From Escherichia phage DT57C, in the sequence record NC_027356.1: 64,000 nt of DNA. The stretch is one strand, 5' to 3'. The notes under the pieces are model-generated. The model searched no databases. It was given only the letters and a program-made list of their open reading frames with translations, and had not been told where the DNA came from. The first letter of the stretch is position 1, and each line of letters opens with the position of its first letter. Both the position numbers and the translations under genes were made by a program. Shown here in pieces: positions 8,362 through 33,123 of this stretch.

Positions 8362-8725
8362 GTGTGATCCCTAGAATTTGTGCTTATCAATTTCCTAGAA
8401 ACTTAGGAGTCTGCTAGAAAGTGTTGAGCCATCCTAGCAGATGAGCGGCAACCGGTGTATCATCTTGAACACAGATATTGCCTTTAAATTTTTATCAGTT
8501 ATTTAAAAGTAAATAGTCCCCCATTTCATGTGAGATTCCTCGTGGGGCGCGTGAGTATTACGGAAGACTTAGTAATTAGATCTATACTCGTGCTGTCGCA
8601 ACGTATAGACGTAATACTAAGTGTAATAATCATCGCCCCTAGAGTTCAAAACAAGAGTTGTTTTTAATCTATGAGATTATTATAACATGTTTGGGTATGA
8701 GAATGCAAGAACTTTTTGTTAACGT

Positions 8726-12580: not shown

Positions 12581-12923
12581 TCCAGTTAAGAATCAGCACG
12601 CGACTAGGAACAATATCGGTATTATACCAAAAATCGTGAACCCATTGACGAGCATCTTCAAACTTACCAAATTTATACGCTTTCTTAAACAATTCAAATC
12701 CAAAACAATCTGGTGTAAAGTCTACTTCGCGATATTGAACTACTTTAGAGCCAGTTAGGTCTTGGATCGCTGCATTAATTTCTGTATGTGAGAATTTTGT
12801 TTCATGAAACTTATTAAAGAATCGGTAGTTGAAGCGTCCGTTCGTTTCGACAAATAACTGGATGAAGAGATCGTTAAATTGGTTATCAAACCAGTAATTC
12901 TGTAGTTGTTGTAGTGCTGTCAT
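12462..12923 (-). CDS. Hypothetical protein
   Basis: 153-aa ORF. Confidence 0.5.
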   Translation of the reverse strand: MTALQQLQNYWFDNQFNDLFIQLFVETNGRFNYRFFNKFHETKFSHTEINAAIQDLTGSKVVQYREVDFTPDCFGFELFKKAYKFGKFEDARQWVHDFWYNTDIVPSRVLILNWIAKQHPPKTQSSFLPTDTGNLYHDRKEKSIAGTDEGVGE

Positions 12924-23472: not shown

Positions 23473-23635
23473 GTGCTTGACCTAAAAGATCATCAGCTTC
23501 ATCAGCAGTAATCTTCAATCCACATACATCTGCCACACGTTCTTTGATTAAGCGACCTGCTTCATGGTAAGACATACAGGTTCCAACAACACTATGCTCG
23601 ACAACGTGAATAGCACAGTCTAGACGATTTTTCAT
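23354..23635 (-). CDS. Cys-rich acidic protein (putative Zn-binding)
   Basis: 93-aa ORF; CxxC-type Cys pairs; downstream of early promoter. Confidence 0.5.
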   Translation of the reverse strand: MKNRLDCAIHVVEHSVVGTCMSYHEAGRLIKERVADVCGLKITADEADDLLGQALEKTEIFLCDSCSWWCEAHEHSFNDYDVCRDCSGGDEDE

Positions 23636-23664
23636 TTCAAACCCCTCTCATCAATTTATATAAA

Positions 23665-23693
23665 TATTATAACAAGAAAAGAGAGGTTTAGCA
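23665..23693 (-). promoter_or_regulatory. Sigma70-type early promoter (TTGCTA-17-TATAAT)
   Basis: -10 23665-23670, -35 23688-23693. Confidence 0.6.
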
Positions 23694-23711
23694 AATGAAT
23701 TATTTCAGAAG

Positions 23712-24059
23712 TTAATCATATGCCCACCATAACCCACGCTTACGCATGTCATGATCGCGATTATAGTCGTAATTTTCTGGATCTTTCATCACGCGGTGGA
23801 GTTCTTGACGATTCCCTTGACGAACCATTTTATTAGAATGCCACTTAACATTCTTACTAACAGAATTCCAGTTATAACCATCCTTTTTCTCATTACGAAT
23901 GGTTGCTTCTTCCATTTCCTGTTCTACCACATCCCAGGATTTAGCATAAGTAACACGAATCCAGCAGCCACTTGCTTTGAGGAAAGTATATCCCTGGGTG
24001 TAATTAGCTTTAGACTTCCACCACTGATCACCAGATTGTTTGCGATAAGTACGGCTCAT
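23712..24059 (-). CDS. Hypothetical Trp-rich protein
   Basis: 115-aa ORF. Confidence 0.5.
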   Translation of the reverse strand: MSRTYRKQSGDQWWKSKANYTQGYTFLKASGCWIRVTYAKSWDVVEQEMEEATIRNEKKDGYNWNSVSKNVKWHSNKMVRQGNRQELHRVMKDPENYDYNRDHDMRKRGLWWAYD

Positions 24060-24138
24060 ATTACCTCCATTAAGTCTTTTGAATTAACCTAATGTGGATG
24101 AATTTTATTATACATAAATTATTTACCTGTATACAGAA

Positions 24139-24172
24139 AAACCCCAGACTACTTATTCAATAGCTGGGGTTT
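24139..24172 (-). terminator. Rho-independent terminator (aaaccccag...ctggggttt)
   Basis: GC stem with T-rich tail on minus strand. Confidence 0.5.
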
Positions 24173-24180
24173 GTTATTAA

Positions 24181-24495
24181 TCACAGATCGGGGTACTTAT
24201 CTTCTAAACAGTCCGAGCTAATATATTCTTCGAGTCCTACAAAGCCATCAAATTCATCATTTGAAATATCCGTAATCAGTGCTTCCATTTTCCTAATTTC
24301 CGAGGTTTTCATGCCTGCTTTACTATTCTTAAAGTATTTGCGAGGATTCCCGCACATCCAACAAGAACAGATGCAAGGAGTAGTAGCGATAATACCTAAC
24401 CGCGTAGGACTTTCTTCATGAGGGAAGACTGTCCAATACTTCTTGCGGTTGTTCTTTACACGTTGCCGGTGATGACGTCTTAATGCTCGATCCAC
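24181..24495 (-). CDS. Cys-rich basic protein
   Basis: 104-aa ORF. Confidence 0.45.
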   Translation of the reverse strand: MDRALRRHHRQRVKNNRKKYWTVFPHEESPTRLGIIATTPCICSCWMCGNPRKYFKNSKAGMKTSEIRKMEALITDISNDEFDGFVGLEEYISSDCLEDKYPDL

Positions 24496-24576
24496 ACATT
24501 TCTCCTAAAACTTGGGAGATAAATGGAGTTTGCTCGACTACCTTACGTAGTTCGTAGAAACCGTATCCAAGCCCCA

Positions 24577-25020
24577 TTACATCGCCTGAGTAAATGTACG
24601 ACTAATAACATCGTTCTGCTGTTCACGCGTCAGTGCGTTAAAACGTACAGCGTACCCTGAAACACGGATAGTTAATTGAGGGTATTTTTCAGGATGTTTC
24701 TGTGCATCCAAAAGCTGATCACGACTTAACACATTGACATTTAGGTGTTGACCCCCTTCAATTTGAGGGGCGACTTCCACCTTGACTTCACGAAAGGATT
24801 CAGAGTCAAAGTGAGGTGTGATACCTTCTAGATCTTCAACTAGAACTTTCTGCTTAAGTTCGCCATCTTTAGAGTACAGTTGAATAATCTGATTATTATG
24901 AACAATATTAATCACGCCAGATTTAAGATTTTGATATGCTTTCATTAGCTCTCCTGTTTGGTAGTTAGTATTGGATTTGAACCACTGTAGTCGCTCCGTA
25001 TGAAGGAGGTGCATAACCAC
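24577..25020 (-). CDS. Autonomous glycyl radical cofactor (GrcA/YfiD-like)
   Basis: 147-aa ORF; C-terminus [29 protein letters not shown] closely matches the glycyl-radical domain of E. coli GrcA/PflB as recalled. Confidence 0.8.
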
Positions 25021-25220
25021 TATGCCAACTAACTATTATGTTTTACTAGACTAAGTAAGTATTCTTTATACTCTTTAGACCAGCTAGCTTTTTTAAACTT
25101 TCCTGGACGCATAGTCTTAATTCCTAGATTTGGTACTCCGGGAGGGATTTAACCCTGATCTCTCGGTTATCCGCCGAGTGCTTTGGATCGCTAAGCTACC
25201 GAAGCATTAAAATATTTACA

Positions 25221-25511
25221 TCACACACTGTCTAAGTAAGAAGTATAATGGAATTTAGTTTCTCCAGTCTTATCTACTTCTACCTCAGTTCGTGGTACTT
25301 GACGAACCACACCATGAATCATCTTATAGCGAATGCCTTTAGCTGGTTCATGATCTTTTGGAAATACTTGTTTAACCGTTACTACTTTATATCCTTCACG
25401 CGGTGTTAACACTACTACTTGATCCCCCTCTTTGATTTTCCAAGAGGGTGGAAATTCATAGGTGTATCTTTGGCCACCAATTTGTAATACTACAGAAAGA
25501 TAACGTTTCAT
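25221..25511 (-). CDS. Hypothetical protein
   Basis: 96-aa ORF directly downstream of early promoter. Confidence 0.5.
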   Translation of the reverse strand: MKRYLSVVLQIGGQRYTYEFPPSWKIKEGDQVVVLTPREGYKVVTVKQVFPKDHEPAKGIRYKMIHGVVRQVPRTEVEVDKTGETKFHYTSYLDSV

Positions 25512-25541
25512 TTGGTTTCCCTCTCATTAATTTATATAAAT

Positions 25542-25570
25542 ATTATAGCAATAAATAAGAGAGAAAGCAA
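25542..25570 (-). promoter_or_regulatory. Sigma70-type early promoter
   Basis: -10 25542-25547, -35 25565-25570 (TTGCTT). Confidence 0.6.
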
Positions 25571-25585
25571 ATGAATTTTTAAATT

Positions 25586-25660
25586 TGGTGCGGGATACGA
25601 GAGTCGAACTCGTGTCTACTGGTTGGAAGCCAGTTATTCTAGCCGCTGAACTAATCACGC
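25586..25660 (-). tRNA. tRNA, probable tRNA-Gly (anticodon UCC)
   Basis: By-eye cloverleaf: T-arm ACGAG-TTCGACT-CTCGT, acceptor with 1 mismatch, 3' CCA encoded. Confidence 0.45.
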
Positions 25661-25671
25661 ATTAATTTGGC

Positions 25672-25749
25672 TGGCAGGGGATATTGGATTTGAACCAATG
25701 ATCTCGACTTCAAATGCCGTAGCTTTAGGCCAAGCTAAGCTAATCCCCA
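25672..25749 (-). tRNA. tRNA, probable tRNA-Gln (anticodon UUG)
   Basis: T-loop TTCAAAT, U8, U33; 1:72 U-U mismatch. Confidence 0.45.
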
Positions 25750-25755
25750 ATTGTT

Positions 25756-25831
25756 TGGCAGAAGGTAGTGGATTTGAACCACTGATCAGGATTTCAGAGA
25801 CCCCGGCCTTAACCGACTTGGCTCAGGTTCT
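25756..25831 (-). tRNA. tRNA-like, possibly tRNA-Gln (CUG); acceptor stem imperfect
   Basis: Good T-arm and anticodon arm (CU-CUG-AA), two C-C mismatches in acceptor; overlaps 3' end of ORF 25786-25995. Confidence 0.3.
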
Positions 25832-25995
25832 TCAAGGCGCTTACCTTCATGATCTACTCGAATGACTCCGCATCCTTCGCAAACCACAACTGCACCATAA
25901 CCTTCTTTGACTTCGGCTTCTGTAATTAGACCAGATAAGTCACCAGTATCTCTGCCCCACATATCAATGGAGCATTGTTTGCAGAAATCAGCCAT
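25786..25995 (-). CDS. Small Zn-ribbon protein (CxxC...CxxC)
   Basis: 69-aa ORF; two CxxC pairs; C-terminal codons overlap tRNA-like sequence. Confidence 0.4.
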   Translation of the reverse strand: MADFCKQCSIDMWGRDTGDLSGLITEAEVKEGYGAVVVCEGCGVIRVDHEGKRLEEPEPSRLRPGSLKS

Positions 25996-25997
25996 AA

Positions 25998-26225
25998 TTA
26001 ATCCTTATTACAAGTGGTAGAGAGGATGGTACGATCGGAGATCCAACCGCCAGTGTAAGCACCATTGACTTTATATTCAGTCAAAGTACCGTGACCACGA
26101 ATAGCGAAAACTGTTAGGGTTTTCGTGCCCCCATAACCATCTTTAACAGTTACGGTACAATCTAATGATGTGCCGATAGTGCAGCCAGCTAAAGTCAGAG
26201 CAGCAATCAATACTAAGTATTTCAT
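25998..26225 (-). CDS. Small lipoprotein
   Basis: 75-aa ORF; signal peptide with lipobox LAGC. Confidence 0.45.
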   Translation of the reverse strand: MKYLVLIAALTLAGCTIGTSLDCTVTVKDGYGGTKTLTVFAIRGHGTLTEYKVNGAYTGGWISDRTILSTTCNKD

Positions 26226-26248
26226 GTTGTTATCCTTGTTAAGTTAAT

Positions 26249-26323
26249 TGGTGCATCCTCAGGGAATCGAACCCCAATCGTAAAGTTCGTGGCTTTACAT
26301 TCTTTCCATTGAAATAAGGACGC
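26249..26323 (-). tRNA. tRNA, probable tRNA-Arg (anticodon ACG)
   Basis: Acceptor 7/7 (with G-U), T-loop TTCGATT, anticodon loop CC-ACG-AA, CCA encoded. Confidence 0.5.
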
Positions 26324-26329
26324 AATATT

Positions 26330-26406
26330 TGGGGTGGCTAGTGGAATTCGAATCCACATAGGCCTGATTCACAATCAGGATCATTAACCAATTATGATAT
26401 AGCCAC
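26330..26406 (-). tRNA. tRNA, probable tRNA-His (anticodon GUG)
   Basis: Perfect acceptor GTGGCTA/TAGCCAC, T-loop TTCGAAT, anticodon loop TT-GTG-AA. Confidence 0.55.
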
Positions 26407-26630
26407 AATTGAAAACTCGCAGGGTTAGCGAAACCATCCTCAATTAGCATGTTCTAGAATACTAATCAAGTTATCTACTATTGCACGCAGCTCAAGACGA
26501 GTACGAATTTTCAATTGTGGCGGCTCTCAGAAACTCTTCTACTCTAGTCTTAGCAGCTTACTCCCGAACGCATGTCGGGGAAGTCTTACCAAGAGCATCA
26601 AATAGCACCGTTACACTTTGAGCCATTATT

Positions 26631-26725
26631 TGGAGGTAGGTAAGGGGATCGAACCCTTACACCGTATCACTACGATCAACCGATTTCAAGTCGGAGTCCA
26701 GCGCCAGCCGTTGGATTGACTTACC
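26631..26725 (-). tRNA. Long tRNA, probable tRNA-Ser (anticodon UGA)
   Basis: T-arm AAGGG-TTCGATC-CCCTT, long variable region, anticodon loop CU-UGA-AA. Confidence 0.4.
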
Positions 26726-26737
26726 ATATAAGTTGTT

Positions 26738-26829
26738 TGGCGGAAGAGGAGAGATTTGAACTCTCAAGCCGTTTTACCAGTCAGCCACTTTCCAAGCGGT
26801 TTTCGTCGCCAATTCGATTTGCTCTTCCA
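26738..26829 (-). tRNA. Long tRNA, probable tRNA-Ser (anticodon GGA)
   Basis: Perfect acceptor GGAAGAG/CTCTTCC, T-arm GAGAG-TTCAAAT-CTCTC, long variable arm. Confidence 0.5.
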
Positions 26830-26940
26830 ATAATAAGATGATGCCTCTATCACGCCAGGCAGTTACGCCTCGCTGGGATTCGAACCCATTAAAACAGCTC
26901 AACCGAGATAGTAGGTTTAATTTACTCTGACCATCAAATT

Positions 26941-27017
26941 TGGTGCGTGACAAGGGATTCGAACCCTCAAAACCCGACTTCTAGGGACGGTATGTATGCC
27001 AATTCCATCAATCACGC
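26941..27017 (-). tRNA. tRNA (anticodon uncertain, possibly UAG)
   Basis: Acceptor GCGTGAT/GTCACGC, T-loop TTCGAAT, CCA encoded. Confidence 0.45.
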
Positions 27018-27022
27018 GTATT

Positions 27023-27096
27023 TGGTGGAGAAAGAGGGAGTTGAACCCTCGTCTTCTGCGTGCAAAGCAGATGTTCTACCATTAAACTATATCCCC
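27023..27096 (-). tRNA. tRNA, probable tRNA-Ala (anticodon UGC)
   Basis: Perfect anticodon stem TCTGC/GCAGA with loop TT-TGC-AC, T-loop TTCAACT. Confidence 0.5.
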
Positions 27097-27334
27097 AAAT
27101 TCTTTAGTTTACTAAGGCTATTAGCTCGGCGTAACTATAGCACCTTCGCTTCGAGCGGAAGGAACTACGTCATCTCGCAAACCCGATACACTATTCAGTT
27201 GCCGCTGAATCTAGTGGACTAATCTAGAACCTCTCCCGAGTCATAGGGATCGTGCTTTTTGGCAGCCAGTCCTAGGTCGAGCTAATACCTTAGTGAACTA
27301 TGATGAGGATTTCTCCCCATCAATTTATATAAAT

Positions 27335-27363
27335 ATTATAACAAGAAATTAAGCATTAAGCAA
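27335..27363 (-). promoter_or_regulatory. Sigma70-type early promoter driving an ORF-free stretch
   Basis: -10 27335-27340, -35 27358-27363; downstream minus-strand sequence has only a 12-codon ORF. Confidence 0.55.
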
Positions 27364-27383
27364 ATGAGTTTTTTCTTGAAATT

Positions 27384-27460
27384 GGTAGCGGGTTCCAGTA
27401 CTGCCCTGGACTTACTTAGCTTATGAGACTAAGAAGAACTCTATGCCTTCCACCCGCAAT
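27384..27460 (-). tRNA. tRNA-like, possibly CAU anticodon (Met/Ile2); non-canonical T-loop
   Basis: Anticodon loop CU-CAU-AA with stem TTAGT/GCTAA; T-loop GGCAGTA atypical. Confidence 0.35.
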
Positions 27461-27463
27461 TAT

Positions 27464-27540
27464 TTGGTCAGTGCGGCAGGACTCGAACCTGCGACCCGCA
27501 TCATCCGAGGGTCCCACGCTACCAACTGCGCTACACACTG
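27464..27540 (-). tRNA. tRNA (anticodon not resolved)
   Basis: Acceptor CAGTGTG/CGCACTG, T-arm GCAGG-TTCGAGT-CCTGC, D-loop AGTTGGTA, CCA encoded. Confidence 0.45.
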
Positions 27541-27548
27541 AAATTTTA

Positions 27549-27896
27549 TTAGTTTAACCGTAAAGTATTATCTACTTCACCATTAATTGTTCGGCATTCC
27601 TCTGGGATTGCTGGGGTGGCCTTGTATTCCCACCACTCAGCACCATCATATTCCCCACGTTCTAGCCAAGTTCCATCGGCAAACCATATATTACCATAAA
27701 GTAATTGTCCACCGTACCCAGAATCATATTCAAAGTCTAGGTTATTAAGAAAATCCTCAATATCTTCTTCTGTATAACCTAAAGGTAGTACCCAAACTTT
27801 TTTATCCCCATAATACCCGAATTCTATTTTAATACACTTAACTTCAGAATTAATATTTTTTAAGGCGAGTAACAGCTCTTCTTTAGCATTACGCAT
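27549..27896 (-). CDS. Hypothetical acidic protein
   Basis: 115-aa ORF. Confidence 0.5.
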   Translation of the reverse strand: MRNAKEELLLALKNINSEVKCIKIEFGYYGDKKVWVLPLGYTEEDIEDFLNNLDFEYDSGYGGQLLYGNIWFADGTWLERGEYDGAEWWEYKATPAIPEECRTINGEVDNTLRLN

Positions 27897-27921
27897 AGTA
27901 TATTCTCATACTGAGTTAATT

Positions 27922-27996
27922 TGGCGCGACCGATGGGATTTGAACCCACATTCCCCGTGACAGGGGAGTACCATTACCAAGCCAGCCCCTGTCGCA
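27922..27996 (-). tRNA. tRNA (anticodon not resolved)
   Basis: Acceptor GCGACAG/CGGTCGC (1 mismatch), T-arm GTGGG-TTCAAAT-CCCAT, CCA encoded. Confidence 0.45.
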
Positions 27997-28004
27997 TAAT
28001 TCAT

Positions 28005-28190
28005 TTACTCATATTTGAGTTTTTCAATAGCTGCATTAAGTTCTTTTAGAGCTTCACGACGTTCTACCTGACCTTGAAGTTCTTCAAGAAGTTCCGCTTT
28101 CAGAGTCTCAATAATTTTACCACGAACCTTGATATTATTAATCAGATTATCACGATCAGCTTCTAGTCGAGCAATTGCATGAGTTGTCAT
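28005..28190 (-). CDS. Small coiled-coil protein
   Basis: 61-aa ORF. Confidence 0.4.
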   Translation of the reverse strand: MTTHAIARLEADRDNLINNIKVRGKIIETLKAELLEELQGQVERREALKELNAAIEKLKYE

Positions 28191-28292
28191 ATCTATTTCC
28201 TCAGTTATTAATGAAAATGGTATCTGTGGCTGAATTCGATGTCAGCAATGATAGCTGGTTGGCTACCGGTTTACTTAACTCTACACAGAATT

Positions 28293-28372
28293 TGGCGGGC
28301 CGTGTAGGATTCGAACCACCAACCCCGAAGGGCACGGATTTACAGACCGCTGCAATAGCCATTCTGCCAACG
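28293..28372 (-). tRNA. tRNA-like element (possible tRNA-Tyr-like anticodon loop CU-GUA-AA); stems imperfect
   Basis: T-loop TTCGAAT and variable-arm hairpin CCC-TTCG-GGG present, but acceptor/T stems do not pair cleanly. Confidence 0.25.
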
Positions 28373-28448
28373 ATGTATATTTAAAAGTATTCAAATACTT
28401 GTTTAAACACTTTTAAATATGTTTCCAACTTAGATAACTATTATATCT

Positions 28449-28487
28449 AGTTTTAAGGCACTGAGCAAGTCAGATTTTGAAGAATTT
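28449..28487. other. 10-bp perfect inverted repeat (cactgagcaa...ttgctcagtg) in promoter-proximal leader
   Basis: Read directly; lies between promoter at 28572-28601 and the tRNA-like element. Confidence 0.6.
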
Positions 28488-28571
28488 GCTCAGTGCTATA
28501 TTAGTTAGTCGAACTTAGGAGTAACAATTAAAGAGAATGGGAGTTCGAAAACTTCATCAATTTATATAACT

Positions 28572-28601
28572 ATTATATCAGAAATTTAAAGCAAAAGGCA
28601 A
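28572..28601 (-). promoter_or_regulatory. Sigma70-type early promoter (TTGCCT-18-TATAAT)
   Basis: -10 28572-28577, -35 28596-28601. Confidence 0.45.
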
Positions 28602-28631
28602 GTACTTTTTTAAAAATTCTGTTTGGAGGAG

Positions 28632-28838
28632 CTAAACTCCAGATTCTTCAGCCAAGTCTAGACTAATAAGAGTTATAGCCATAATTGCCGCACCGTGTTC
28701 TTTTTCTCCGGTGTTTTTAGCAGAGTCTATAATACCCTTAATCTGTTCGTAATAACTTTTTACTTCTTGTTCAATGCCGGCCTCGGCTATCATGCCTTTA
28801 GTCATGAGTCGTTGCATGGTAATTTCACGGTTAGCCAT
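28632..28838 (-). CDS. Hypothetical protein
   Basis: 68-aa ORF. Confidence 0.45.
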   Translation of the reverse strand: MANREITMQRLMTKGMIAEAGIEQEVKSYYEQIKGIIDSAKNTGEKEHGAAIMAITLISLDLAEESGV

Positions 28839-29013
28839 GATGTTTCTCCAGTTTCATCTTTAATAGTTTACAAATGAAGTCAATATCTTCATCCGTGCCT
28901 AGATCTCTATCTTCAAGAGTTGCCTTGAAGTTTTTAGTCAACTCCATAAGGATGACTTCCCTAGAACGACGTGTTGGCGGAGGTGGATGTCTATACATCT
29001 TATTTCCTTAATT

Positions 29014-29088
29014 TGGTGGGTCGGAGGAGAATCTAACTCCTACTCGTTAGCTTATGAGGCCACCGCTTTAACTTTAAGCTACCGACCC
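29014..29088 (-). tRNA. tRNA, probable CAU anticodon (Met or Ile2)
   Basis: Perfect acceptor GGGTCGG/CCGACCC, T-arm AGGAG-TTAGATT-CTCCT, loop CU-CAU-AA. Confidence 0.5.
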
Positions 29089-29094
29089 TATGTT

Positions 29095-29183
29095 TGGCGG
29101 AAGAAGCGGGAATCGAACCCACAAGGCTATATTTCAAACCGACAGATTAGCAATCTGCTGCAATACCGTTATGCTATTCTTCC
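29095..29183 (-). tRNA. Long tRNA, probable tRNA-Ser (anticodon GCU)
   Basis: Perfect acceptor GGAAGAA/TTCTTCC, T-arm GTGGG-TTCGATT-CCCGC, loop TT-GCT-AA, long variable arm. Confidence 0.5.
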
Positions 29184-29204
29184 GAATTTATAAGATATAT
29201 TATA

Positions 29205-29741
29205 TTAGAAATTTAGCTTCATAGCAAGAAAATTTTTCAAGTTTTCGGTAGACATCTCATCCACATCTACAGGAGAAACAAACCCATCTAATTGTCTAGC
29301 AAATTTTTCACCGGCAGGATCATTATCCCCAACAGCTACCAATTTAAAAGGTAGTAATTTCAATTGCTTTAACAACGCTTTTCCGGGGGAAGAACCCAAC
29401 ATTGCTAGGGCAGGATAACCAGCATTATGTAATGCTACAGCCTTAAATACAGATTCAGCAATCAATACTACTTTTTCATCCCCATTGAGAGTTTCTAGCC
29501 CCCATACACACTGTGTGGTAGAATAAGTAAAATATCTAGCTTCAGAGGGGCACTTACCATGACCTTTTGGAGCAGAAGGATTATAAATCTGATAGCCTCT
29601 CAGCATCCCAGAGAAGTCGTACAATGGGACTGTTAGCCATCCCTCCGGGCTTAACCAGCAATGATATTTATCTGTATCAAACCCTCTGGATAAGAGATGT
29701 TCTGTTAGTTCATCAACAGTCATATTAGATTCCTCTCTCAA
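29205..29741 (-). CDS. Hypothetical protein with TOPRIM-like motifs
   Basis: 178-aa ORF; LIAESVFKA and VAVGDNDPAG resemble TOPRIM E / DxD motifs. Confidence 0.4.
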   Translation of the reverse strand: MREESNMTVDELTEHLLSRGFDTDKYHCWLSPEGWLTVPLYDFSGMLRGYQIYNPSAPKGHGKCPSEARYFTYSTTQCVWGLETLNGDEKVVLIAESVFKAVALHNAGYPALAMLGSSPGKALLKQLKLLPFKLVAVGDNDPAGEKFARQLDGFVSPVDVDEMSTENLKNFLAMKLNF

Positions 29742-29761
29742 ATTATAAATATATTATACAG

Positions 29762-29790
29762 AGAATTTAGCATTCAAGCAATTGAATTTT
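29762..29790 (-). promoter_or_regulatory. Sigma70-type early promoter
   Basis: -10 29762-29767, -35 29785-29790 (TTGCTT). Confidence 0.6.
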
Positions 29791-29867
29791 TAAACTTTTT
29801 AGTGGAAAATCTCAAGACATTTAATGGCAGCACGTTGTTGCTGTAATAAGAGTATATGGTTCTAAAG

Positions 29868-29910
29868 AACCAAACAATAAAGCCCTGCGCTCTCCAGGGA
29901 ACGCAGGGCT
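29868..29910 (-). terminator. Rho-independent terminator (agccctgcg...cgcagggct)
   Basis: 9-bp stem followed on minus strand by T-rich tract. Confidence 0.55.
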
Positions 29911-29934
29911 TACTTCAGAGATTACATGCGGGTG

Positions 29935-30882
29935 TTATTTGTTACGCATGTCCATGATCATCTGGCCATCGTAACCAGTTCCCACAACTGTTTGCGGTAC
30001 ACCACCTTGATACTTCTGAGCACGAATCATTTCAACTTCTAGTTGTTTCCAACGAATCATCTCAGGAGTAATGGTACGTTGCAGAGCGGCGTTAGCCTCA
30101 GCTTCTTTCTTAGCTGCGTACAGTTTAGCATCTGCATCACGTTCGTTTGCAATAGCTTGGTTGTTACGAGCTTCACGATCTGCTTCTGCTTGTTTAACCT
30201 TCTGCTGTGCTTCTTGTTCAACACGAGCCAACTCAGCTTTCGCAGCATTAACTTGTTCTTCACGAACTTTGGTATTCTGTACCTGTTCCATGATTACAGG
30301 CGGCAAAGTAATATCCTGAAGGAACACTTGCTTAACTGTGTAACCATAAGGGCGTGCATACTCTTCAACTTCCTGTTGAATTGCAGTTTGTAATTGAGCC
30401 TGAATTTTAGCATCAAACAAATCTTGTGCTTTAGGAACAGACTTGCCGAACTCACGAATAGTAGACAGTAATTTTTCAGTTACATATTTGTCTAACGCTT
30501 GATCCTGAGTACCTGCATTAATACGGTTAATCGGTGCCTTAGAACCATCAAATTGTAACATAACAGTCAGGTCAACAGTGGATTTAAACTTATCCTGACT
30601 AGGAACCTGAAGTTTATCTAATTTTACAGCAATATCTTTTGTACTAAAAGTATCGAAAGATGCAAAGGGGTTTACAAGATGGAAGCCAGGTAATACTGGG
30701 TTAGGATCTACTTTACCAAGAAATGTTTGGGTTTTAACCGTACCATCGGAAACAATAGTATATGAATTAAAAGCTAGGATTAAACCTGCTAAACCAACTA
30801 CAGCACCAATACCCCAACGTTTAATAGTGCGCATTACTTTTTGCTCAGAAGTCAGTTCTTTCATATTTTTAGTATTAAACAT
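29935..30882 (-). CDS. SPFH/band-7 family membrane protein (HflC/prohibitin-like)
   Basis: 315-aa ORF; N-terminal TM helix, long Ala/Glu/Gln-rich coiled-coil C-terminus typical of SPFH proteins. Confidence 0.55.
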   Translation of the reverse strand: MFNTKNMKELTSEQKVMRTIKRWGIGAVVGLAGLILAFNSYTIVSDGTVKTQTFLGKVDPNPVLPGFHLVNPFASFDTFSTKDIAVKLDKLQVPSQDKFKSTVDLTVMLQFDGSKAPINRINAGTQDQALDKYVTEKLLSTIREFGKSVPKAQDLFDAKIQAQLQTAIQQEVEEYARPYGYTVKQVFLQDITLPPVIMEQVQNTKVREEQVNAAKAELARVEQEAQQKVKQAEADREARNNQAIANERDADAKLYAAKKEAEANAALQRTITPEMIRWKQLEVEMIRAQKYQGGVPQTVVGTGYDGQMIMDMRNK

Positions 30883-30916
30883 GTATTTCCTTTGTTTTAG
30901 TTACAGTTAATAAAAT

Positions 30917-30991
30917 TGGCCGAGGTGACAGGATTCGAACCTGCATAAAGGAATTTAGAAGACTCCTGCCTCTCCCTTAGACTACACCCCG
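30917..30991 (-). tRNA. tRNA, probable tRNA-Arg (anticodon UCU)
   Basis: Acceptor CGGGGTG/CACCTCG, T-arm GCAGG-TTCGAAT-CCTGT, loop CU-UCU-AA. Confidence 0.5.
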
Positions 30992-31492
30992 TTTAAGTAT
31001 TTTTAAGAACTCTCGTAAAAACTCTTAAAAATACAGACGATACCGGGAGAGTCATAAGTCTCACTCATTAAGTATTTCAAGACAAAATACAGTAACGTCT
31101 ATTATTTTCCAGTTTAAGTCAAGGTGACTTAGTGGTTATGCCCTGCGGTATACTGAGGACTCGGTTAGGCTAGGGTCATGACTCCCCGCTTTTTGCTGCT
31201 ACTCAACAGGAATTATCGCGAATTACCTGTGCTATTGTGCACCATTAGTGGCATCTCTCATGCCAGCATTTCCCACTTTGTGGATAGTTTGAAAAACTAC
31301 TCCGATATGGAGGGAGAACTTCACTATCCTAGAATACCTTCTAAAGTTCTTCTTTAGCCTGGACATAGTTAAATCGTAATAAAACTATTCAGCAGACTGG
31401 TTGATTAGCCTGGAACCAACTACCGCGTGGTTTAGGCAGTGCGCAACTAACCTCGGAAGCTTTTACGTTAAAAGCACCAGTTATCCAGCTCT

Positions 31493-31562
31493 TACCGATC
31501 GTAGGATTCGAACCTACATCTTCCACCAGTTACGGCTTGATAATACCGTTTATACTAGATCG
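31493..31562 (-). tRNA. tRNA-like (anticodon not resolved; no encoded CCA)
   Basis: Perfect T-arm GTAGG-TTCGAAT-CCTAC and acceptor GCCGATC/GATCGGT. Confidence 0.35.
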
Positions 31563-31640
31563 GCAGTGTTACTACATAAGTGATTTCCACACCCCACCAT
31601 CAATAAATTAGGGAAGAATTACTCTCTAATTTATGAATAT

Positions 31641-31669
31641 ATTATACAGAATTTATAAGCATTTAGCAA
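31641..31669 (-). promoter_or_regulatory. Sigma70-type early promoter (TTGCTA-17-TATAAT)
   Basis: -10 31641-31646, -35 31664-31669; transcribes toward tRNA-like gene and ORF-free 31000-31490. Confidence 0.55.
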
Positions 31670-31677
31670 ATGAATTT

Positions 31678-32112
31678 TTAGAAAAATTCACTAGCAATCA
31701 GAGCGGCTGTTTTACCATCATAACGCCCTGGAAACTCTGCCTTAATAGTTTTCATTAAGAGAGCTTTGGTAATACCTGGGTTTAGCTTAACCAATTCTGC
31801 AAAATATTTACGAATTTCGGTTTCAGTCAGTTGACTTGGCTGATACTCTTGCAGCATGAAATAAAGCAGTTGCTCGTAGTCTACATCAGTAGGAACTTTC
31901 GTACCAACTTTAATAGCACGCTGCTTTGCAGTTTCTAGAGCTTTAATCTGGGCTTTCAGATAAGCTACGAACTCGGTTCGAGTAACAACGTCTTTATTAA
32001 TGCGTTGCAAGTCACCAATCATAGTCTGGAGATTGATTGCCCGCTCTTTGTCACCGTGGATACGTGCTAGACTAAGCAGTCCACGAAGGGTCATTAGAAT
32101 ATTTTCACCCAT
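31678..32112 (-). CDS. Hypothetical protein
   Basis: 144-aa ORF; start overlaps stop of upstream small ORF. Confidence 0.5.
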   Translation of the reverse strand: MGENILMTLRGLLSLARIHGDKERAINLQTMIGDLQRINKDVVTRTEFVAYLKAQIKALETAKQRAIKVGTKVPTDVDYEQLLYFMLQEYQPSQLTETEIRKYFAELVKLNPGITKALLMKTIKAEFPGRYDGKTAALIASEFF

Positions 32113-32282
32113 TATTTCATCCCCAATGCTTGGTTGAAAGATTGTTCTGTCATAACTGCTGAGACTTTGGCGAAATCAAACTTTTTAGGGTTCGTAGTGA
32201 TCTCAGCAACGTTGGAAGTTTTAACAGTTTTCGTAGTACGAATACCGCGAGTGTTAACACCAATAATTACAACTGATTTCAT
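32112..32282 (-). CDS. Small hypothetical protein (~56 aa), not in ORF track
   Basis: By-eye: GGAAGCGAAAT-ATG context; MKSVVIIGVNTRGIRTTKTVKTSNVAEITTNPKKFDFAKVSAVMTEQSFNQALGMK; downstream of promoter. Confidence 0.35.
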   Translation of the reverse strand: MKSVVIIGVNTRGIRTTKTVKTSNVAEITTNPKKFDFAKVSAVMTEQSFNQALGMK

Positions 32283-32313
32283 ATTTCGCTTCCTCTCATT
32301 AATTTATGAAAGT

Positions 32314-32342
32314 ATTATACAGAAGTTTAAGTATTTAAGCAA
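32314..32342 (-). promoter_or_regulatory. Sigma70-type early promoter
   Basis: -10 32314-32319, -35 32337-32342 (TTGCTT). Confidence 0.6.
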
Positions 32343-32350
32343 ATAAATTT

Positions 32351-32818
32351 TTAAGTTTTAGTGACAGCAGGCTTATAAAATGTATGTCCCTTAATCTTGG
32401 TTGTTTTCTTAAACTTCTTTGTCCAGTATGGTTTATCTTTACCACTATGGAAGTATAAGGCCCCATGTGTAGGATCTTGTGGTAAATCAACGTAGTATAT
32501 CACTCTAGCTAAATTCTTGGCGGTTTGCCAAGCCTCATCGGTTTTATCAACTTTTGGTCTCTTAGATACCCAAGAGAACTGGTTAGACTGATATACTACT
32601 TTACAGTAGGAATCTGGGAATTTACCGGAGTTTACACGGTTTTTAGTAACGTGTGCAATCGCCGTCATTCCCTTTATGCCCTCACCACGACTTTCGAAAT
32701 AGATATTTTTAGCAATGCAATCTATTTCTTTTGCATCGTGCGATGCTTGACTACTAAAGCTGAAGGTAAGGGCAGCTACTAAAAGCAAAGCTGCCTTCAT
32801 TCTTTTTACTCCTGCCAA
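32351..32818 (-). CDS. Cell wall hydrolase (SleB/CwlJ-like) with signal peptide
   Basis: 155-aa ORF; signal peptide, motif CIAKNIYFESRGEG. Confidence 0.55.
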   Translation of the reverse strand: MAGVKRMKAALLLVAALTFSFSSQASHDAKEIDCIAKNIYFESRGEGIKGMTAIAHVTKNRVNSGKFPDSYCKVVYQSNQFSWVSKRPKVDKTDEAWQTAKNLARVIYYVDLPQDPTHGALYFHSGKDKPYWTKKFKKTTKIKGHTFYKPAVTKT

Positions 32819-33123
32819 TCGTATTCAATACGATTGGGGTTTTCTTTGTATCCCAAGTCAAGCAAATCATTACGCATAGTTTGCTTAGCTACGGGATTCG
32901 AGGTTACTAGTACCACTTTCTTTGGTCTCTGCCCAAATTCTAAGAGTAAACGAAGAATTTGATAACCTTCCATACCATCTACAGCCAAATCGTTGTCGAA
33001 ATAAACAAAATGGCCAGTGGTATCAGTCTTATTCAGAAACTCAACAGCGGCTTCTGGGGTTCGAATGATAATGTCCATTCCGTGAAGATTACGCACATCA
33101 TCAATCAAAATATGAAAAGTCAT
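32806..33123 (-). CDS. Hypothetical protein
   Basis: 105-aa ORF downstream of promoter. Confidence 0.5.
   Translation of the reverse strand: MTFHILIDDVRNLHGMDIIIRTPEAAVEFLNKTDTTGHFVYFDNDLAVDGMEGYQILRLLLEFGQRPKKVVLVTSNPVAKQTMRNDLLDLGYKENPNRIEYDWQE

What the first reader, a model, noticed from the sequence alone, without database searches (positions are those of the whole stretch)
25586..31562. tRNA cluster with several non-canonical members
At least 17 minus-strand tRNA or tRNA-like genes were found by eye. Several show position 1:72 mismatches, C-C pairs in the acceptor stem, an atypical T-loop (27384-27460), or stems that do not close (28293-28372); one overlaps the 3' end of a Zn-ribbon ORF (25756-25831 vs 25786-25995). 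These could be pseudo-tRNAs, processing substrates, or tRNA-like regulatory RNAs.
Basis: partly seen in the sequence, partly recalled or inferred. Interest (0 to 1): 0.45.

Follow-up and report, generated by a model that had tools for sequence, protein, structure and literature searches.

The report
Partly decayed T5-phage tRNA cluster
This is the long-known tRNA gene block of a T5-like coliphage, in a lineage where deletions and point mutations have broken several of the tRNAs; one of the 17 elements is a conserved tRNA-shaped RNA module that is not a tRNA.

Summary
The window is a Tequintavirus (T5-like phage), 98.4% identical here to Escherichia phage DT571/2. The public T5 and DT571/2 records already annotate this block as tRNAs plus 'stable RNAs of unknown function'.

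Comparison with 20 T5-like loci explains most oddities as derived damage:
- 28293-28376 is a tRNA-Tyr 5' part fused to a tRNA-Asn 3' end, with the crossover in the shared T-loop.
- Gln(CUG), with its C.C pairs and ORF overlap, is a roughly 600-bp deletion that fused the T5.062 ORF to a 5'-truncated tRNA.
- Asp, Pro(CGG), Ser(UGA) and Leu(UAG) carry lineage-specific lesions.

Other oddities are shared across a whole allele and are compatible with function: Gln(UUG) U1.U72, Gly U4.C69 and Ala U6.U67.

Two elements are conserved and non-canonical:
- A variant of the T5 'fMet' tRNA has replaced D and T arms.
- The call 'tRNA-Ser(ACU)' is a tRNA-like domain with no decoding loop and no CCA. It is clamped by a covarying leader-trailer helix at the 5' end of RNAX and is conserved across Demerecviridae.

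Verdict: a known system and mostly ordinary. The RNAX module is a modest new lead.

The parts
25586..25660 (-). tRNA-Gly(UCC). Has a U4.C69 mismatch that is shared by every copy of this allele. Probably functional.
   Evidence: ARAGORN. Rfam 63.9 bits. Cloverleaf drawing. The same allele is in L006, L010, L013 and L016. 100% identical to DT571/2.
25672..25749 (-). tRNA-Gln(UUG) with U1.U72 and discriminator G73. Probably functional.
   Evidence: (46.2 bits). The T5 homologue is 97% identical, keeps U1.U72 and is annotated as converting to an effective amber suppressor.
25756..25831 (-). Pseudo-tRNA-Gln(CUG). The true 5' end (about 9 nt) is lost. What looks like the 5' acceptor strand is the 3' part of ORF T5.062, which gives two C.C pairs.
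   Evidence: The junction GAAGAACCTGAGCCAA|GTCGG lies at 25813-25833. The T5 homologue is flagged as a pseudogene.
25786..25995 (-). ORF, homologue of T5.062 (69 aa, CxxC...CxxC). Its last 9-10 codons read through into the tRNA remnant.
   Evidence: BLASTP against T5.062 gives 94% identity, with conservation ending at residue 59, EEPEP. No Pfam hit.
26249..26323 (-). tRNA-Arg(ACG), canonical.
   Evidence: (47.0 bits). Among the 20 loci it is found only in DT571/2 and, at 80% identity, in L010.
26330..26407 (-). tRNA-His(GUG), canonical and nearly invariant among T5-like phages.
   Evidence: (59.9 bits).
26408..26513 (-). RNAIII, a T5 'stable RNA with unknown functions'.
   Evidence: Mapped from the DT571/2 annotation at 99.1% identity. 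Also annotated in T5.
26518..26624 (-). RNAI, a T5 'stable RNA with unknown functions'. Its ends can pair (GGCTC/GAGCC) and it ends in GCCA.
   Evidence: 93.5% identity to DT571/2. The end pairing was read directly from the sequence.
26631..26725 (-). tRNA-Ser(UGA), type II (long variable arm). Carries a window-only G5-to-A change that gives A5.C68.
   Evidence: (33.2 bits on the tRNA-Sec model). All other copies of this allele have G5.
26738..26828 (-). tRNA-Ser(GGA), type II and low-scoring, but identical in 13 of the sequences compared.
   Evidence: (19.7 bits). The T5 record notes that its Ser(GGA) does not convert to a suppressor.
26829..26940 (-). Spacer containing a T-arm-like remnant (TGGGTTCGAATCCCA). 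It travels with the short Leu allele and sits where T5 has the HNH gene hegC.
   Evidence: T5 layout.
26941..27017 (-). tRNA-Leu(UAG), short allele: 77 nt, no long variable arm, U.U in the anticodon stem. In this lineage U33 has become C.
   Evidence: The short allele is in 12 of 20 loci, but C33 occurs only in the window and DT571/2. Rfam gives 42.6 bits here against 47.7 for the U33 copy.
27023..27096 (-). tRNA-Ala(UGC) with G3.U70 and an allele-wide U6.U67. Best-scoring tRNA in the cluster.
   Evidence: (72.3 bits).
27116..27287 (-). RNA2H, a T5 'stable RNA with unknown functions'.
   Evidence: 94.8% identity to DT571/2.
27383..27458 (-). Type-B allele of the T5 'initiator tRNA-fMet' locus. 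The acceptor stem (U1.U72) and the CAU anticodon arm are kept. The D arm and T arm are replaced (T loop GGCAGUA, no GG in the D loop).
   Evidence: Not reported by Rfam even at E<=10. The Pro plus type-B pair occurs in at least 31 phage records, and none of those listed annotates type B as a tRNA.
27465..27540 (-). tRNA-Pro(CGG). Compared with the common Pro(UGG) allele it carries G30C, U34C, C40A and U42G, which leave G.G and C.A in the anticodon stem.
   Evidence: Rfam gives 45.6 bits against 62.7 and 55.4 for intact copies. The arm sequence was found nowhere else.
27922..27995 (-). Probable pseudo-tRNA-Asp(GUC). C6 has become A (A6.G67) and 3 nt are deleted at the anticodon-stem/variable-loop boundary.
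   Evidence: Rfam gives 27.9 bits (below the gathering score of 29) against 46.7-49.0 for intact copies. The lesions are shared only with DT571/2.
28218..28290 (-). RNA3, annotated in T5 as a 'putative tRNA-like RNA'. It has a 6-bp terminal stem, two hairpins and ends in ACCA.
   Evidence: Fold z-score -3.0.
28293..28376 (-). Chimeric pseudo-tRNA. The tRNA-Tyr(GUA) 5' part (28376-28313) is fused to the tRNA-Asn 3' end (28317-28293). The crossover lies in the shared GGTTC of the T loop.
   Evidence: Rfam gives 25.1 bits against 50.2 (Tyr) and 58.4 (Asn). No cloverleaf forms.
29014..29088 (-). tRNA with a CAU anticodon, annotated Ile(CAU) in DT571/2. High-scoring.
   Evidence: (60.6 bits).
29095..29183 (-). 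tRNA-Ser(GCU), type II, canonical.
   Evidence: (57.9 bits).
30917..30991 (-). tRNA-Arg(UCU), canonical. It lies at the 3' end of RNAX.
   Evidence: (49.3 bits).
30992..31627 (-). RNAX, a 636-nt 'stable RNA with unknown functions' that runs from the P16-17 promoter to tRNA-Arg(UCU).
   Evidence: 99.5% identity to DT571/2. Some blocks are conserved in distant Demerecviridae.
31493..31565 (-). tRNA-like domain (TLS), which ARAGORN calls 'tRNA-Ser(ACU)'. The acceptor, D and T arms are conserved. The fourth arm is variable and non-decoding (6-nt loop). No CCA is encoded.
   Evidence: (39.0 bits).
31571..31584 (-). P0 helix, 5' strand (AUCACUUAUGUAGU). It is followed by the invariant AACAC.
   Evidence: Coordinates.
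31476..31489 (-). P0 helix, 3' strand (GCUGGAUAACUGGU).
31459..31475 (-). Conserved hairpin just downstream of P0 (GCUUUU-AACGU-AAAAGC).
   Evidence: Two pairs covary. Coordinates.
31641..31669 (-). Sigma-70-type promoter match (TTGCTA, 17 nt, TATAAT), at the position of T5 promoter P16-17.
   Evidence: This is only a consensus match, and the region as a whole is not enriched over shuffles. T5 annotation.

Best explanation
This is the tRNA-rich early region of a T5-like phage (Tequintavirus, close to DT571/2). The tRNAs, small ORFs and 'stable RNAs' sit on one strand. In T5 they are transcribed from repeated early promoters, presumably as multi-gene precursors that host enzymes such as RNase P cut into individual RNAs (inferred).

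In this lineage the region has shrunk from the usual 20-26 tRNAs to about 13 intact-looking ones. The non-canonical members fall into four groups.

1. Deletion scars.
- A deletion of about 0.85 kb, measured on the L014-type arrangement, had its crossover in the shared T-loop sequence GGTTC. It fused the 5' part of tRNA-Tyr to the 3' end of tRNA-Asn and removed tRNA-Cys. Phe, Trp and Glu are also missing in this lineage.
- A deletion of about 0.6 kb through the microhomology GAAGAA..AGCCAA removed the end of ORF T5.062, the HNH endonuclease gene hegD and the first 9 or so nt of tRNA-Gln(CUG). The ORF now reads into the tRNA remnant.

2. Point decay. Asp, Pro(CGG), Ser(UGA), Leu(UAG) and, just outside the interval, Ile(GAU) carry substitutions or small deletions that break pairs or change U33. 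These changes are absent from orthologues in other T5-like phages.

3. Allele-wide quirks compatible with function: Gln(UUG) U1.U72, Gly U4.C69, Ala U6.U67, and possibly Ser(GGA) and the short-arm Leu.

4. Conserved tRNA-like RNAs that do not decode.
- The type-B 'fMet' variant.
- The RNAX 5' module. This is a tRNA-like domain held inside a leader-trailer helix. It most likely acts as a fold-defined processing or stability element, or as a protein-binding element, for the stable RNA.

Shown here: the homology, the deletion junctions, the direction of the changes by parsimony, and the covariation. Inferred: loss of function, the processing pathway and the role of the RNAX module.
For: Identity of the region. 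It is 98.4% identical over 98% of 7.5 kb to DT571/2, and 578 T5-like phage records match. The DT571/2 and T5 annotations list the same tRNAs plus RNAI, RNAIII, RNA2H, RNA3 and RNAX, and T5 flags Gln(CUG) as a pseudogene.

Reduced set. Most of the 20 T5-like loci show 20-26 tRNAs. The window has 13, and DT571/2, L014, L004 and L018 have 9-12.

Chimera. Nucleotides 1-66 are 97% identical to the L014 tRNA-Tyr, and nucleotides 56-80 are 100% identical to the L014 tRNA-Asn 3' end, which lies about 880 bp downstream.

Gln(CUG) fusion. The window reads ...CTTGAAGAACCTGAGCCAAGTCGG. In T5...GAAGAACCTGAGCCAATCGCC (the T5.062 end) and ...GAAGAAGGTTAGCCAAGTCGG (the tRNA start) lie about 600 bp apart with hegD between them. 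The T5 acceptor strands AGAAGGT and ACCTTCT pair perfectly.

Recurrence. DT571/2 carries a separate Ile(GAU)::Met fusion where the window still has both genes.

Point lesions and score drops. Pro falls from 62.7/55.4 to 45.6 bits, Asp from 49.0/46.7 to 27.9, Ile(GAU) from 65.5 to 43.5, and short Leu from 47.7 to 42.6.

RNAX module. It is found in 488 phage records. On the tested structure 89-92% of cells pair, against 32-52% for slid controls. Between 11 and 15 pairs have changes on both sides, against 1-4 in the controls. RNAalifold recovers the P0 helix independently. Rfam aligns the element without an anticodon arm.

Literature. Spontaneous deletions of about 8 kb in this tRNA-rich region are documented in T5 and SP15 (PMC11555353).
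Against: - There are no expression, processing or aminoacylation data, so 'pseudo' rests on structure and on comparison with orthologues.
- The Rfam score of the window's Gln(CUG) (39.8 bits) is no lower than that of the T5 copy (39.1). Score alone therefore does not show extra damage.
- The direction of change was inferred by parsimony from 20 loci plus BLAST summaries, not from a phylogeny.
- The four clustered changes in the Pro anticodon arm and the two U33 changes could be selected rather than neutral.
- Divergence from DT571/2 is patchy (RNAI 93.5%, RNA2H 94.8%, Pro 89%). Recombination, not only mutation, therefore shaped some alleles.
- The promoter scan is not enriched over shuffles.
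Confidence: 0.85

Rival explanations
1. The anticodon-arm changes are adaptive rather than decay. These are Leu U33-to-C, Ile(GAU) U33-to-G, and in Pro U34-to-C plus three stem changes. They would let the phage tRNAs escape host anticodon nucleases while still decoding.
For: The changes cluster in anticodon loops and stems. Pro has 4 of its 5 unique substitutions within 17 nt. Published work proposes that phage tRNAs evade tRNA-targeting defences through anticodon-loop mutations (PMC10264068), and T5 tRNA-Tyr counters retron-Eco7 (PMC11555353).
Against: U33 is almost universally conserved (established knowledge). The Pro changes break two of the five anticodon-stem pairs. The Ile(GAU) copy also has a 2-nt deletion in the T loop. 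Each change is confined to the window, or to the window plus DT571/2, and is not seen in other records. The same lineage has lost many tRNAs outright, which points to relaxed selection.
Confidence: 0.1
2. The element at 27383-27458 (type-B 'fMet') is a working methionine or initiator tRNA with an unusual elbow, not a tRNA-like RNA or pseudogene.
For: The acceptor stem with U1.U72 and the whole CAU anticodon loop match the T5 gene that is annotated as initiator tRNA-fMet. All five T-stem pairs differ from type A and yet all still pair. The first anticodon-stem pair changed from C-G to U-A. CCA is encoded. The allele is kept at 95-100% identity in at least 31 records, including a locus (L018) that still has the neighbouring Lys and Val genes.
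Against: The T loop GGCAGUA lacks the T54/psi55 consensus and the D loop lacks GG, so the normal elbow contacts cannot form (read from the sequence). Rfam reports no match even at E<=10. The fold z-score is only -0.88, against -2.76 for type A. The anticodon stem lacks the three G-C pairs typical of bacterial initiators. No annotation pipeline calls it a tRNA in the records listed.
Confidence: 0.2
3. The element at 31493-31565 is a genuine decoding tRNA of unusual type, as some genome records annotate it (Ser(ACU), Sec, Gln or Pro).
For: ARAGORN and Rfam both call it. Other records label it tRNA-Ser, tRNA-Sec, tRNA-Gln, tRNA-Pro or tRNA-OTHER.
Against: The 'anticodon' arm is not conserved. Its loop is the 6-nt GUAACU, UUCACC or UGUGGU, a GAGA tetraloop in phage AAS21, or an arm 14 nt longer in Klebsiella phages. 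There is no U33. No CCA is encoded, whereas the other 16 elements in the interval encode it. Rfam aligns it with the anticodon arm skipped. The leader and trailer pair with each other.
Confidence: 0.04
4. All members are canonical, and the mismatches are errors from folding by hand.
For: About half of the 17 score 45-72 bits and fold normally.
Against: Software reproduces every reported anomaly.
Confidence: 0.01

Closest known systems
tRNA gene region of bacteriophage T5 (NC_005859) and of Escherichia phage DT571/2 (KM979355)
   Same: The gene order, strand, small ORFs and stable RNA genes (RNAIII, RNAI, RNA2H, RNA3, RNAX) are the same. Identity is 98.4% to DT571/2 and about 88-98% to T5 in the shared blocks. 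T5 already flags Gln(CUG) as a pseudogene and RNA1/2/3 as tRNA-like.
   Different: Compared with T5, the window lacks Thr, Val, Lys, Asn, Cys, Phe, Trp, Glu, an intact Tyr, RNA1, RNAIV, RNA2 and the HNH genes hegA, hegC and hegD. It has Arg(ACG), which T5 lacks at that position. Compared with DT571/2, it keeps Met and Ile(GAU), keeps a full-length Pro (5'-truncated in DT571/2, but with a mutated anticodon arm here), and has a Ser(UGA) G5A change. The chimera and the type-B element are not annotated in DT571/2.
Spontaneous deletions of the tRNA-rich region in T5n and SP15m (Azam et al. 2024, PMC11555353)
   Same: The same genomic region is involved, and loss of blocks of tRNA genes is tolerated in the laboratory. 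tRNA-Tyr lies within the lost set.
   Different: Those were single deletions of about 8 kb. Here there are several smaller deletions, and their endpoints were mapped to the nucleotide inside tRNA genes or at an ORF/tRNA microhomology.
Stable RNAs 'species 1 and 2' in the phage T4 tRNA cluster (from my own knowledge)
   Same: They are small, stable, structured RNAs of unknown function, encoded among phage tRNA genes and released from the same precursors.
   Different: No sequence relation was tested. T4 is a different phage family.
Bacterial Y-RNA-like YrlA RNAs, which are tRNA mimics (from my own knowledge: Chen et al. 2014)
   Same: A tRNA-like domain with canonical T and D arms is embedded in a larger RNA. 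The ends of that RNA form a conserved helix containing non-paired positions.
   Different: No Rfam match other than tRNA was found. As I recall it, the long stem in YrlA leaves from the anticodon-stem side, whereas here it extends the acceptor stem. No Ro60/Rsr gene was seen among the ORFs of 23500-33000 that were examined.
Rfam RF00005 tRNA
   Same: The acceptor, D and T arms of the RNAX domain match, with a score of 39 bits against a gathering score of 29.
   Different: The anticodon arm is skipped in the alignment, there is no CCA, and the leader and trailer are paired.

Membership tests
T5-type tRNA-rich early region (Tequintavirus) | Nucleotide homology and shared gene order with the T5 and DT571/2 region | tested here: met
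   98.4% identity over 98% of 7.5 kb to DT571/2. Collinear blocks with T5.
T5-type tRNA-rich early region (Tequintavirus) | Same-strand tRNA genes interspersed with small ORFs and with the stable-RNA genes RNAI, RNAIII, RNA2H, RNA3 and RNAX | tested here: met
T5-type tRNA-rich early region (Tequintavirus) | Near-complete tRNA set (about 20-26 genes) | tested here: not met
   ARAGORN finds 13 tRNAs in the window, against 20-26 in most of the 20 T5-like loci. This is a reduced variant, like DT571/2.
Canonical decoding tRNA (RF00005), applied to 28293-28376, 27922-27995 and 27383-27458 | Score at or above the Rfam gathering score (29 bits) | tested here: not met
   25.1 bits, 27.9 bits, and not reported at E<=10, respectively.
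Canonical decoding tRNA, applied to 31493-31565 | 7-nt anticodon loop with U33, conserved within the family, and a 3' CCA | tested here: not met
   The loop is 6 nt, 4 nt or part of a long arm, and its sequence is not conserved. No CCA is encoded.
Bacterial initiator tRNA-fMet, applied to 27383-27458 | Unpaired 1:72 and a CAU anticodon | tested here: met
   U1.U72 and CAU, as in the T5 gene annotated as fMet. E. coli has C1.A72 (established knowledge).
Bacterial initiator tRNA-fMet, applied to 27383-27458 | Three consecutive G-C pairs at the bottom of the anticodon stem | tested here: not met
   The stem reads UUAGU/GCUAA. The T5 type-A gene lacks them too.
Bacterial initiator tRNA-fMet, applied to 27383-27458 | Canonical T loop and GG in the D loop (the elbow) | tested here: not met
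   The T loop is GGCAGUA and the D loop is GCAUAGAGUU.
Bacterial type II tRNA-Leu, applied to 26941-27017 | Long variable arm | tested here: not met
   The gene is 77 nt with a variable region of about 5 nt. T5 and four other loci have 85-87-nt alleles with the arm.
Hybrid (chimeric) pseudo-tRNA produced by deletion between two tRNA genes | The 5' part is collinear with one intact tRNA and the 3' part with another, both found separately in a relative, with a crossover in a shared sequence | tested here: met
   L014 tRNA-Tyr at 8690-8773 and tRNA-Asn at 9519-9601. Crossover in GGTTC.
tmRNA | Detected by ARAGORN, with a tag reading frame | tested here: not met
   No tmRNA was found in the window.
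YrlA / bacterial Y RNA | Match to a described covariance model | tested here: not met
   No family other than tRNA scores near its threshold on 31400-31650 or on 24000-33000.
YrlA / bacterial Y RNA | Binding to Ro60/Rsr | not testable with these tools
   Needs biochemistry.

The most novel reading that the evidence does not exclude
The 137-nt module at the 5' end of RNAX (31459-31595) may be a distinct functional RNA class of Demerecviridae rather than a tRNA gene or a passive processing signal.

It consists of a tRNA-like domain with a normal acceptor/T-arm/D-arm elbow but a non-decoding fourth arm. The domain is clamped by a 13-14-bp leader-trailer helix with invariant C.C and G.G non-pairs and an invariant internal loop. 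A covarying hairpin follows.

It could be a tRNA mimic that recruits or titrates a tRNA-binding factor, such as RNase P, a modification or CCA-adding enzyme, a host tRNA-directed defence nuclease, or the neighbouring weakly YqeY-like protein. That would give a first handle on what the 'stable RNAs' of phage tRNA clusters do.
Probability: 0.3. Interest if true: 0.6.

Novelty: already known. Interest (0 to 1): 0.28.

Why it matters
As a whole this is the textbook T5 tRNA region, so it changes little. Three points have some practical value.

1. Annotation. Gene finders label the deletion scars and the RNAX tRNA-like domain as tRNA-Gln, tRNA-Ser, tRNA-Sec or tRNA-OTHER. This inflates or confuses phage tRNA repertoires.

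2. Mechanism of genome reduction. Deletions in this region end inside tRNA genes, at the shared T-loop, or at short ORF/tRNA microhomologies. They leave recognisable chimeras.

3. Biology.
- This phage lacks an intact tRNA-Tyr, which protects T5-like phages from retron-Eco7 (PMC11555353). It also lacks tRNA-Lys. From my own knowledge, T5 tRNA-Lys counters the PARIS defence system. The phage is therefore predicted to be more sensitive to those defences.
- The RNAX module offers a defined, conserved target for testing what phage 'stable RNAs' are for.

Tried and rejected
1. I first tested whether 28293-28372 is a hybrid of T5's own Tyr and Asn genes. The T5 alleles do not match the 5' part. The hybrid was confirmed only with the Tyr allele of locus L014.

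2. I tested whether 27383-27458 is an fMet/Val or fMet/Lys deletion hybrid. This was rejected. It aligns with fMet at both ends and not with Val or Lys. The same allele occurs in L018 with Lys and Val still present.

3. I looked for a donor for the mutated Pro anticodon arm, as would be expected for gene conversion. None was found in the 125 loci held at the time, in IMG/VR viral contigs, or in the phage collection, where the best identity is 96.2%.

4. I looked for a described RNA family for the RNAX module. Only tRNA passes threshold. SpF41 sRNA scores 25.6 bits against a gathering score of 52, which is not significant.

5. The pattern AACACTGCCG...GGTTCRANTCC picked up nine metagenomic viral contigs that turned out to be unrelated ordinary tRNAs. 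The genome-collection scan gave only a chance hit, and seven of the 18 metagenome loci were also chance matches.

6. The promoter and terminator scan of the region is not enriched over shuffles, so promoter positions rest on the T5 annotation.

7. Pfam gave no domain for T5.058, T5.062, the Cor-like lipoprotein or T5.067. The ORF upstream of RNAX hits YqeY only weakly (20.6 bits, below the cut-off of 27).

8. Locus L002, fetched by accession, was not available in the scripting sandbox. The T5 copy in L003 was used instead.

Full report
**What the window is.** The 7.5 kb around the finding matches 578 phage records. The best match is Escherichia phage DT571/2, a Tequintavirus in the Demerecviridae, at 98.4% identity over 98% of the query.
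- The DT571/2 record annotates this stretch as a run of minus-strand tRNA genes and small ORFs. It also lists five 'stable RNAs with unknown functions': RNAIII, RNAI, RNA2H, RNA3 and RNAX.
- The T5 reference record annotates 25 tRNAs here. It flags tRNA-Gln(CUG) as a pseudogene and calls RNA1, RNA2 and RNA3 'tRNA-like'. It also notes for each tRNA whether an anticodon swap turns it into an amber suppressor.
- The finding is therefore the T5 tRNA-rich region, a system studied since the 1970s (reference list of PMC4810235; PMC10644984).

**Checking the observation.** The count of 17 is reproduced.
- ARAGORN at default settings finds 13 tRNAs in the window, 12 of them inside the interval.
- Rfam finds 14 at or above its gathering score.
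- A permissive Rfam search adds four sub-threshold hits at 26635-26725, 26742-26828, 27925-27995 and 28301-28372.
- ARAGORN at 80% threshold adds Asp(GUC), Ser(UGA), Ser(GGA) and a CAU element next to Pro.
  - U1.U72 in Gln(UUG) and in the CAU element;
  - two C.C pairs in Gln(CUG);
  - the T loop GGCAGUA at 27383-27458;
  - no cloverleaf at 28293-28372;
  - the 46-nt overlap of ORF 25786-25995 with Gln(CUG).

**Comparison set.** A search with the small ORF T5.067 returned 20 T5-like loci from IMG/VR, L003-L022. L003 is T5 and L011 is DT571/2. Most carry 20-26 tRNAs in this region. The window has 13. DT571/2, L014, L004 (a truncated locus) and L018 have 9-12. Many isoacceptors exist as deeply divergent alleles at the same position, including Gln, Gly, Leu, Ala and Ser.

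**Deletion scars.**
- *The element whose stems do not close.* Its nucleotides 1-66 match the tRNA-Tyr(GUA) of L014 at 97%. Its nucleotides 56-80 match the 3' end of the L014 tRNA-Asn at 100%, about 880 bp downstream. The overlap is the shared T-loop sequence. The three-way alignment puts the switch at GGTTC. The hybrid combines a Tyr 5' acceptor strand with an Asn 3' strand, and a Tyr 5' T-stem strand with an Asn 3' strand, so neither stem closes. It scores 25.1 bits, against 50.2 for Tyr and 58.4 for Asn.
- *Gln(CUG).* In T5 the ORF T5.062 ends ...GAAGAACCTGAGCCAATCGCC.... About 600 bp further on, after the HNH gene hegD, the tRNA starts ...GAAGAAGGTTAGCCAAGTCGG.... The window reads ...GAAGAACCTGAGCCAAGTCGG.... 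Conservation with the T5.062 protein stops at residue 59, EEPEP. The apparent 5' acceptor strand is therefore ORF sequence. This explains both the C.C pairs and the ORF overlap. T5's own strands AGAAGGT and ACCTTCT pair perfectly.
- *Recurrence.* The same kind of event has happened independently in DT571/2. There the window's Ile(GAU) and Met genes are fused into one Ile-5'::Met-3' hybrid.
- *Other endpoints.* In L014 another deletion ends in two copies of the repeated early promoter.

**Point decay.** Each lesion below is set against intact orthologues.
- *Asp* has C6-to-A (A6.G67) and a 3-nt deletion. Both are shared only with DT571/2. Its score falls from 46.7-49.0 to 27.9 bits.
- *Pro* has G30C, U34C, C40A and U42G. 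The anticodon becomes CGG, and G.G and C.A are left in the stem. Its score falls from 62.7/55.4 to 45.6 bits. The arm sequence occurs nowhere else that I could search.
- *Ser(UGA)* has a window-only G5A change.
- *Leu(UAG)* belongs to a 77-nt allele without the long variable arm. That allele is present in 12 of 20 loci, but only the window and DT571/2 have C33 in place of U33.
It has U33-to-G and a 2-nt deletion in the T loop, and drops from 65.5 to 43.5 bits.
- Overall divergence from DT571/2 is patchy rather than concentrated in tRNAs. I therefore read these changes as relaxed constraint in a lineage that is shedding tRNAs, not as accelerated change.

**Quirks that are probably harmless.**
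- Gln(UUG) U1.U72 is shared with the T5 gene, which is annotated as an effective suppressor after an anticodon change.
- Gly U4.C69 and Ala U6.U67 are present in every copy of their alleles.
- Ser(GGA) scores poorly but is identical in 13 of the sequences compared.

**The type-B 'fMet' element.**
- At the position of T5's 'initiator tRNA-fMet' there are two alleles.
- Type B is in the window, DT571/2, L004, L014 and L018. It keeps the acceptor stem (U1.U72) and the CAU loop.
- Its D and T arms are different, and all five T-stem pairs have changed yet still pair.
- Its T loop is GGCAGUA and its D loop has no GG.
- Rfam does not report it.
- The Pro plus type-B pair is in at least 31 phage records, and none of those listed annotates type B as a tRNA.
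- It is not a scar of the Lys/Val deletion, because L018 keeps those genes.
- Its function is open. I give 0.2 to its being a working Met tRNA.

**The RNAX tRNA-like module.**
- *Distribution.* The call 'tRNA-Ser(ACU)' at 31493-31565 lies inside RNAX. Homologues occur in 488 records across Tequintavirus, Epseptimavirus, Sugarlandvirus and a Pantoea phage. They are annotated variously as tRNA-Ser, OTHER, Sec, Gln, Pro or nothing.
- *Arms.* The acceptor, D and T arms are conserved. The fourth arm is not. It is a 3-5-bp stem with a 6-nt loop of varying sequence, a GAGA tetraloop, or an arm 14 nt longer. No CCA is encoded. Rfam's alignment simply skips the anticodon arm.
- *Clamping helix.* The conserved flanks pair with each other. 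A helix of 13-14 bp (P0; 31571-31584 with 31476-31489) encloses the cloverleaf. It has two invariant non-pairs, C.C and G.G, and an invariant internal loop. A covarying hairpin follows at 31459-31475.
- *Covariation.* On 11-16 distinct sequences, 89-92% of cells pair, against 32-52% when partners are slid by 1-3 columns. Between 11 and 15 pairs show changes on both sides, against 1-4 in the slid controls. No shuffle reaches the observed covariation score. I derived this structure partly by eye from these same sequences, which favours it in such controls. However, RNAalifold predicts P0, the acceptor, the T arm and the hairpin on its own, with 12 compensated pairs out of 30.
- *Where it occurs.* Scans of bacterial genomes and metagenomes found the module only in T5-like contexts.

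**How it most likely works (inferred).**
- The block is transcribed from T5 early promoters. The one upstream of RNAX matches the consensus at 31669-31641 and corresponds to T5 promoter P16-17.
- Host RNase P and 3' processing enzymes release the tRNAs. The segments between them with paired ends persist as the 'stable RNAs'.
- The RNAX domain has everything RNase P reads: a 7-bp acceptor stacked on a 5-bp T stem, a canonical T loop, GG in the D loop, and U at -1. It is therefore a plausible cleavage or binding site. The paired leader and trailer and the invariant non-pairs suggest something more specific, but that cannot be decided here.

**Consequences (inferred).** The phage has no intact tRNA-Tyr, which rescues T5-like phages from retron-Eco7 (PMC11555353). 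It also has no tRNA-Lys.

**Verdict.** The system is already known and annotated in close relatives. The nucleotide-level account of the scars and the clamped RNAX module are small additions. Interest is 0.28.

Noticed in passing
ARAGORN misses the Ile copy at default settings. That copy carries U33-to-G and a 2-nt T-loop deletion relative to 16 other loci.
   Followed up: yes
L011 (DT571/2) 12660-12770, equivalent to window 24999-25173: DT571/2 lacks 175 bp that the window has. In their place it carries an Ile(GAU)-5'::Met-3' hybrid tRNA. This is a second, independent tRNA-to-tRNA deletion, and it is not annotated in the record.
   Followed up: yes
window 31103-31277 and 31283-31355 (inside RNAX): Further blocks of RNAX are conserved at 75-86% identity in Salmonella, Klebsiella and Pantoea Demerecviridae, while the sequence between them is not. 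RNAX may contain more structured modules than the 5' one studied here.
   Followed up: partly
window 25506-25591, 27310-27387, 28554-28620, 29712-29804, 31618-31680, 32279-32363: Copies of a T5 early-promoter repeat of about 60-90 bp, 76-87% identical to one another. In L014, one deletion joins the copies equivalent to 27318-27386 and 25521-25580. The repeats therefore also serve as deletion endpoints.
   Followed up: partly
L003-L022, whole tRNA region: The same isoacceptor at the same position often exists as alleles only about 60-80% identical (Gln, Gly, Leu, Ala, Ser(UGA), CAU tRNAs), although the flanks are 93-98% identical. This looks like replacement of genes by foreign versions rather than gradual divergence.
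   Followed up: partly
window 26829-26940: A 112-nt spacer containing a T-arm-like remnant (TGGGTTCGAATCCCA) always accompanies the short 77-nt Leu(UAG) allele. Loci with the 85-nt Leu have Leu directly next to Ser(GGA), or in T5 the HNH gene hegC. The short Leu allele may itself descend from a rearrangement.
   Followed up: partly
window 26518-26624 (RNAI) and 26408-26513 (RNAIII): RNAI has pairing ends (GGCTC/GAGCC) and a 3' GCCA like a tRNA acceptor end. RNAIII has a 9-bp terminal stem (AATTGAAAA/TTTTCAATT). Both were read from the sequence and not analysed further.
   Followed up: no
window 31678-32112 (minus strand): The ORF directly upstream of the RNAX promoter (T5.081, annotated 'tRNA amidotransferase' in T5) hits Pfam YqeY only weakly (20.6 bits, cut-off 27). 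In Pantoea phage AAS21 a 'YqeY-like protein' gene also lies upstream of the tRNA-like element.
   Followed up: partly
window 31465-31566: Sub-threshold resemblance to Rfam SpF41 sRNA of Streptococcus (25.6 bits, gathering score 52). That family's consensus also contains UAGUAUA...GGUUCGAAUCC followed by a hairpin. Probably just shared tRNA-like features.
   Followed up: no
window about 44000: GC skew changes sign: negative up to about 44 kb and positive after, with the cumulative minimum at 42-44 kb. This is consistent with a switch in the direction of transcription or replication in the phage genome.
   Followed up: no
window 24577-25020: The longest ORF for the GrcA-like glycyl-radical protein starts at a GTG inside tRNA-Met. 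The real start is probably the ATG at 24945 that follows a GGAG. The Pfam Gly_radical hit is clear (66.6 bits).
   Followed up: partly
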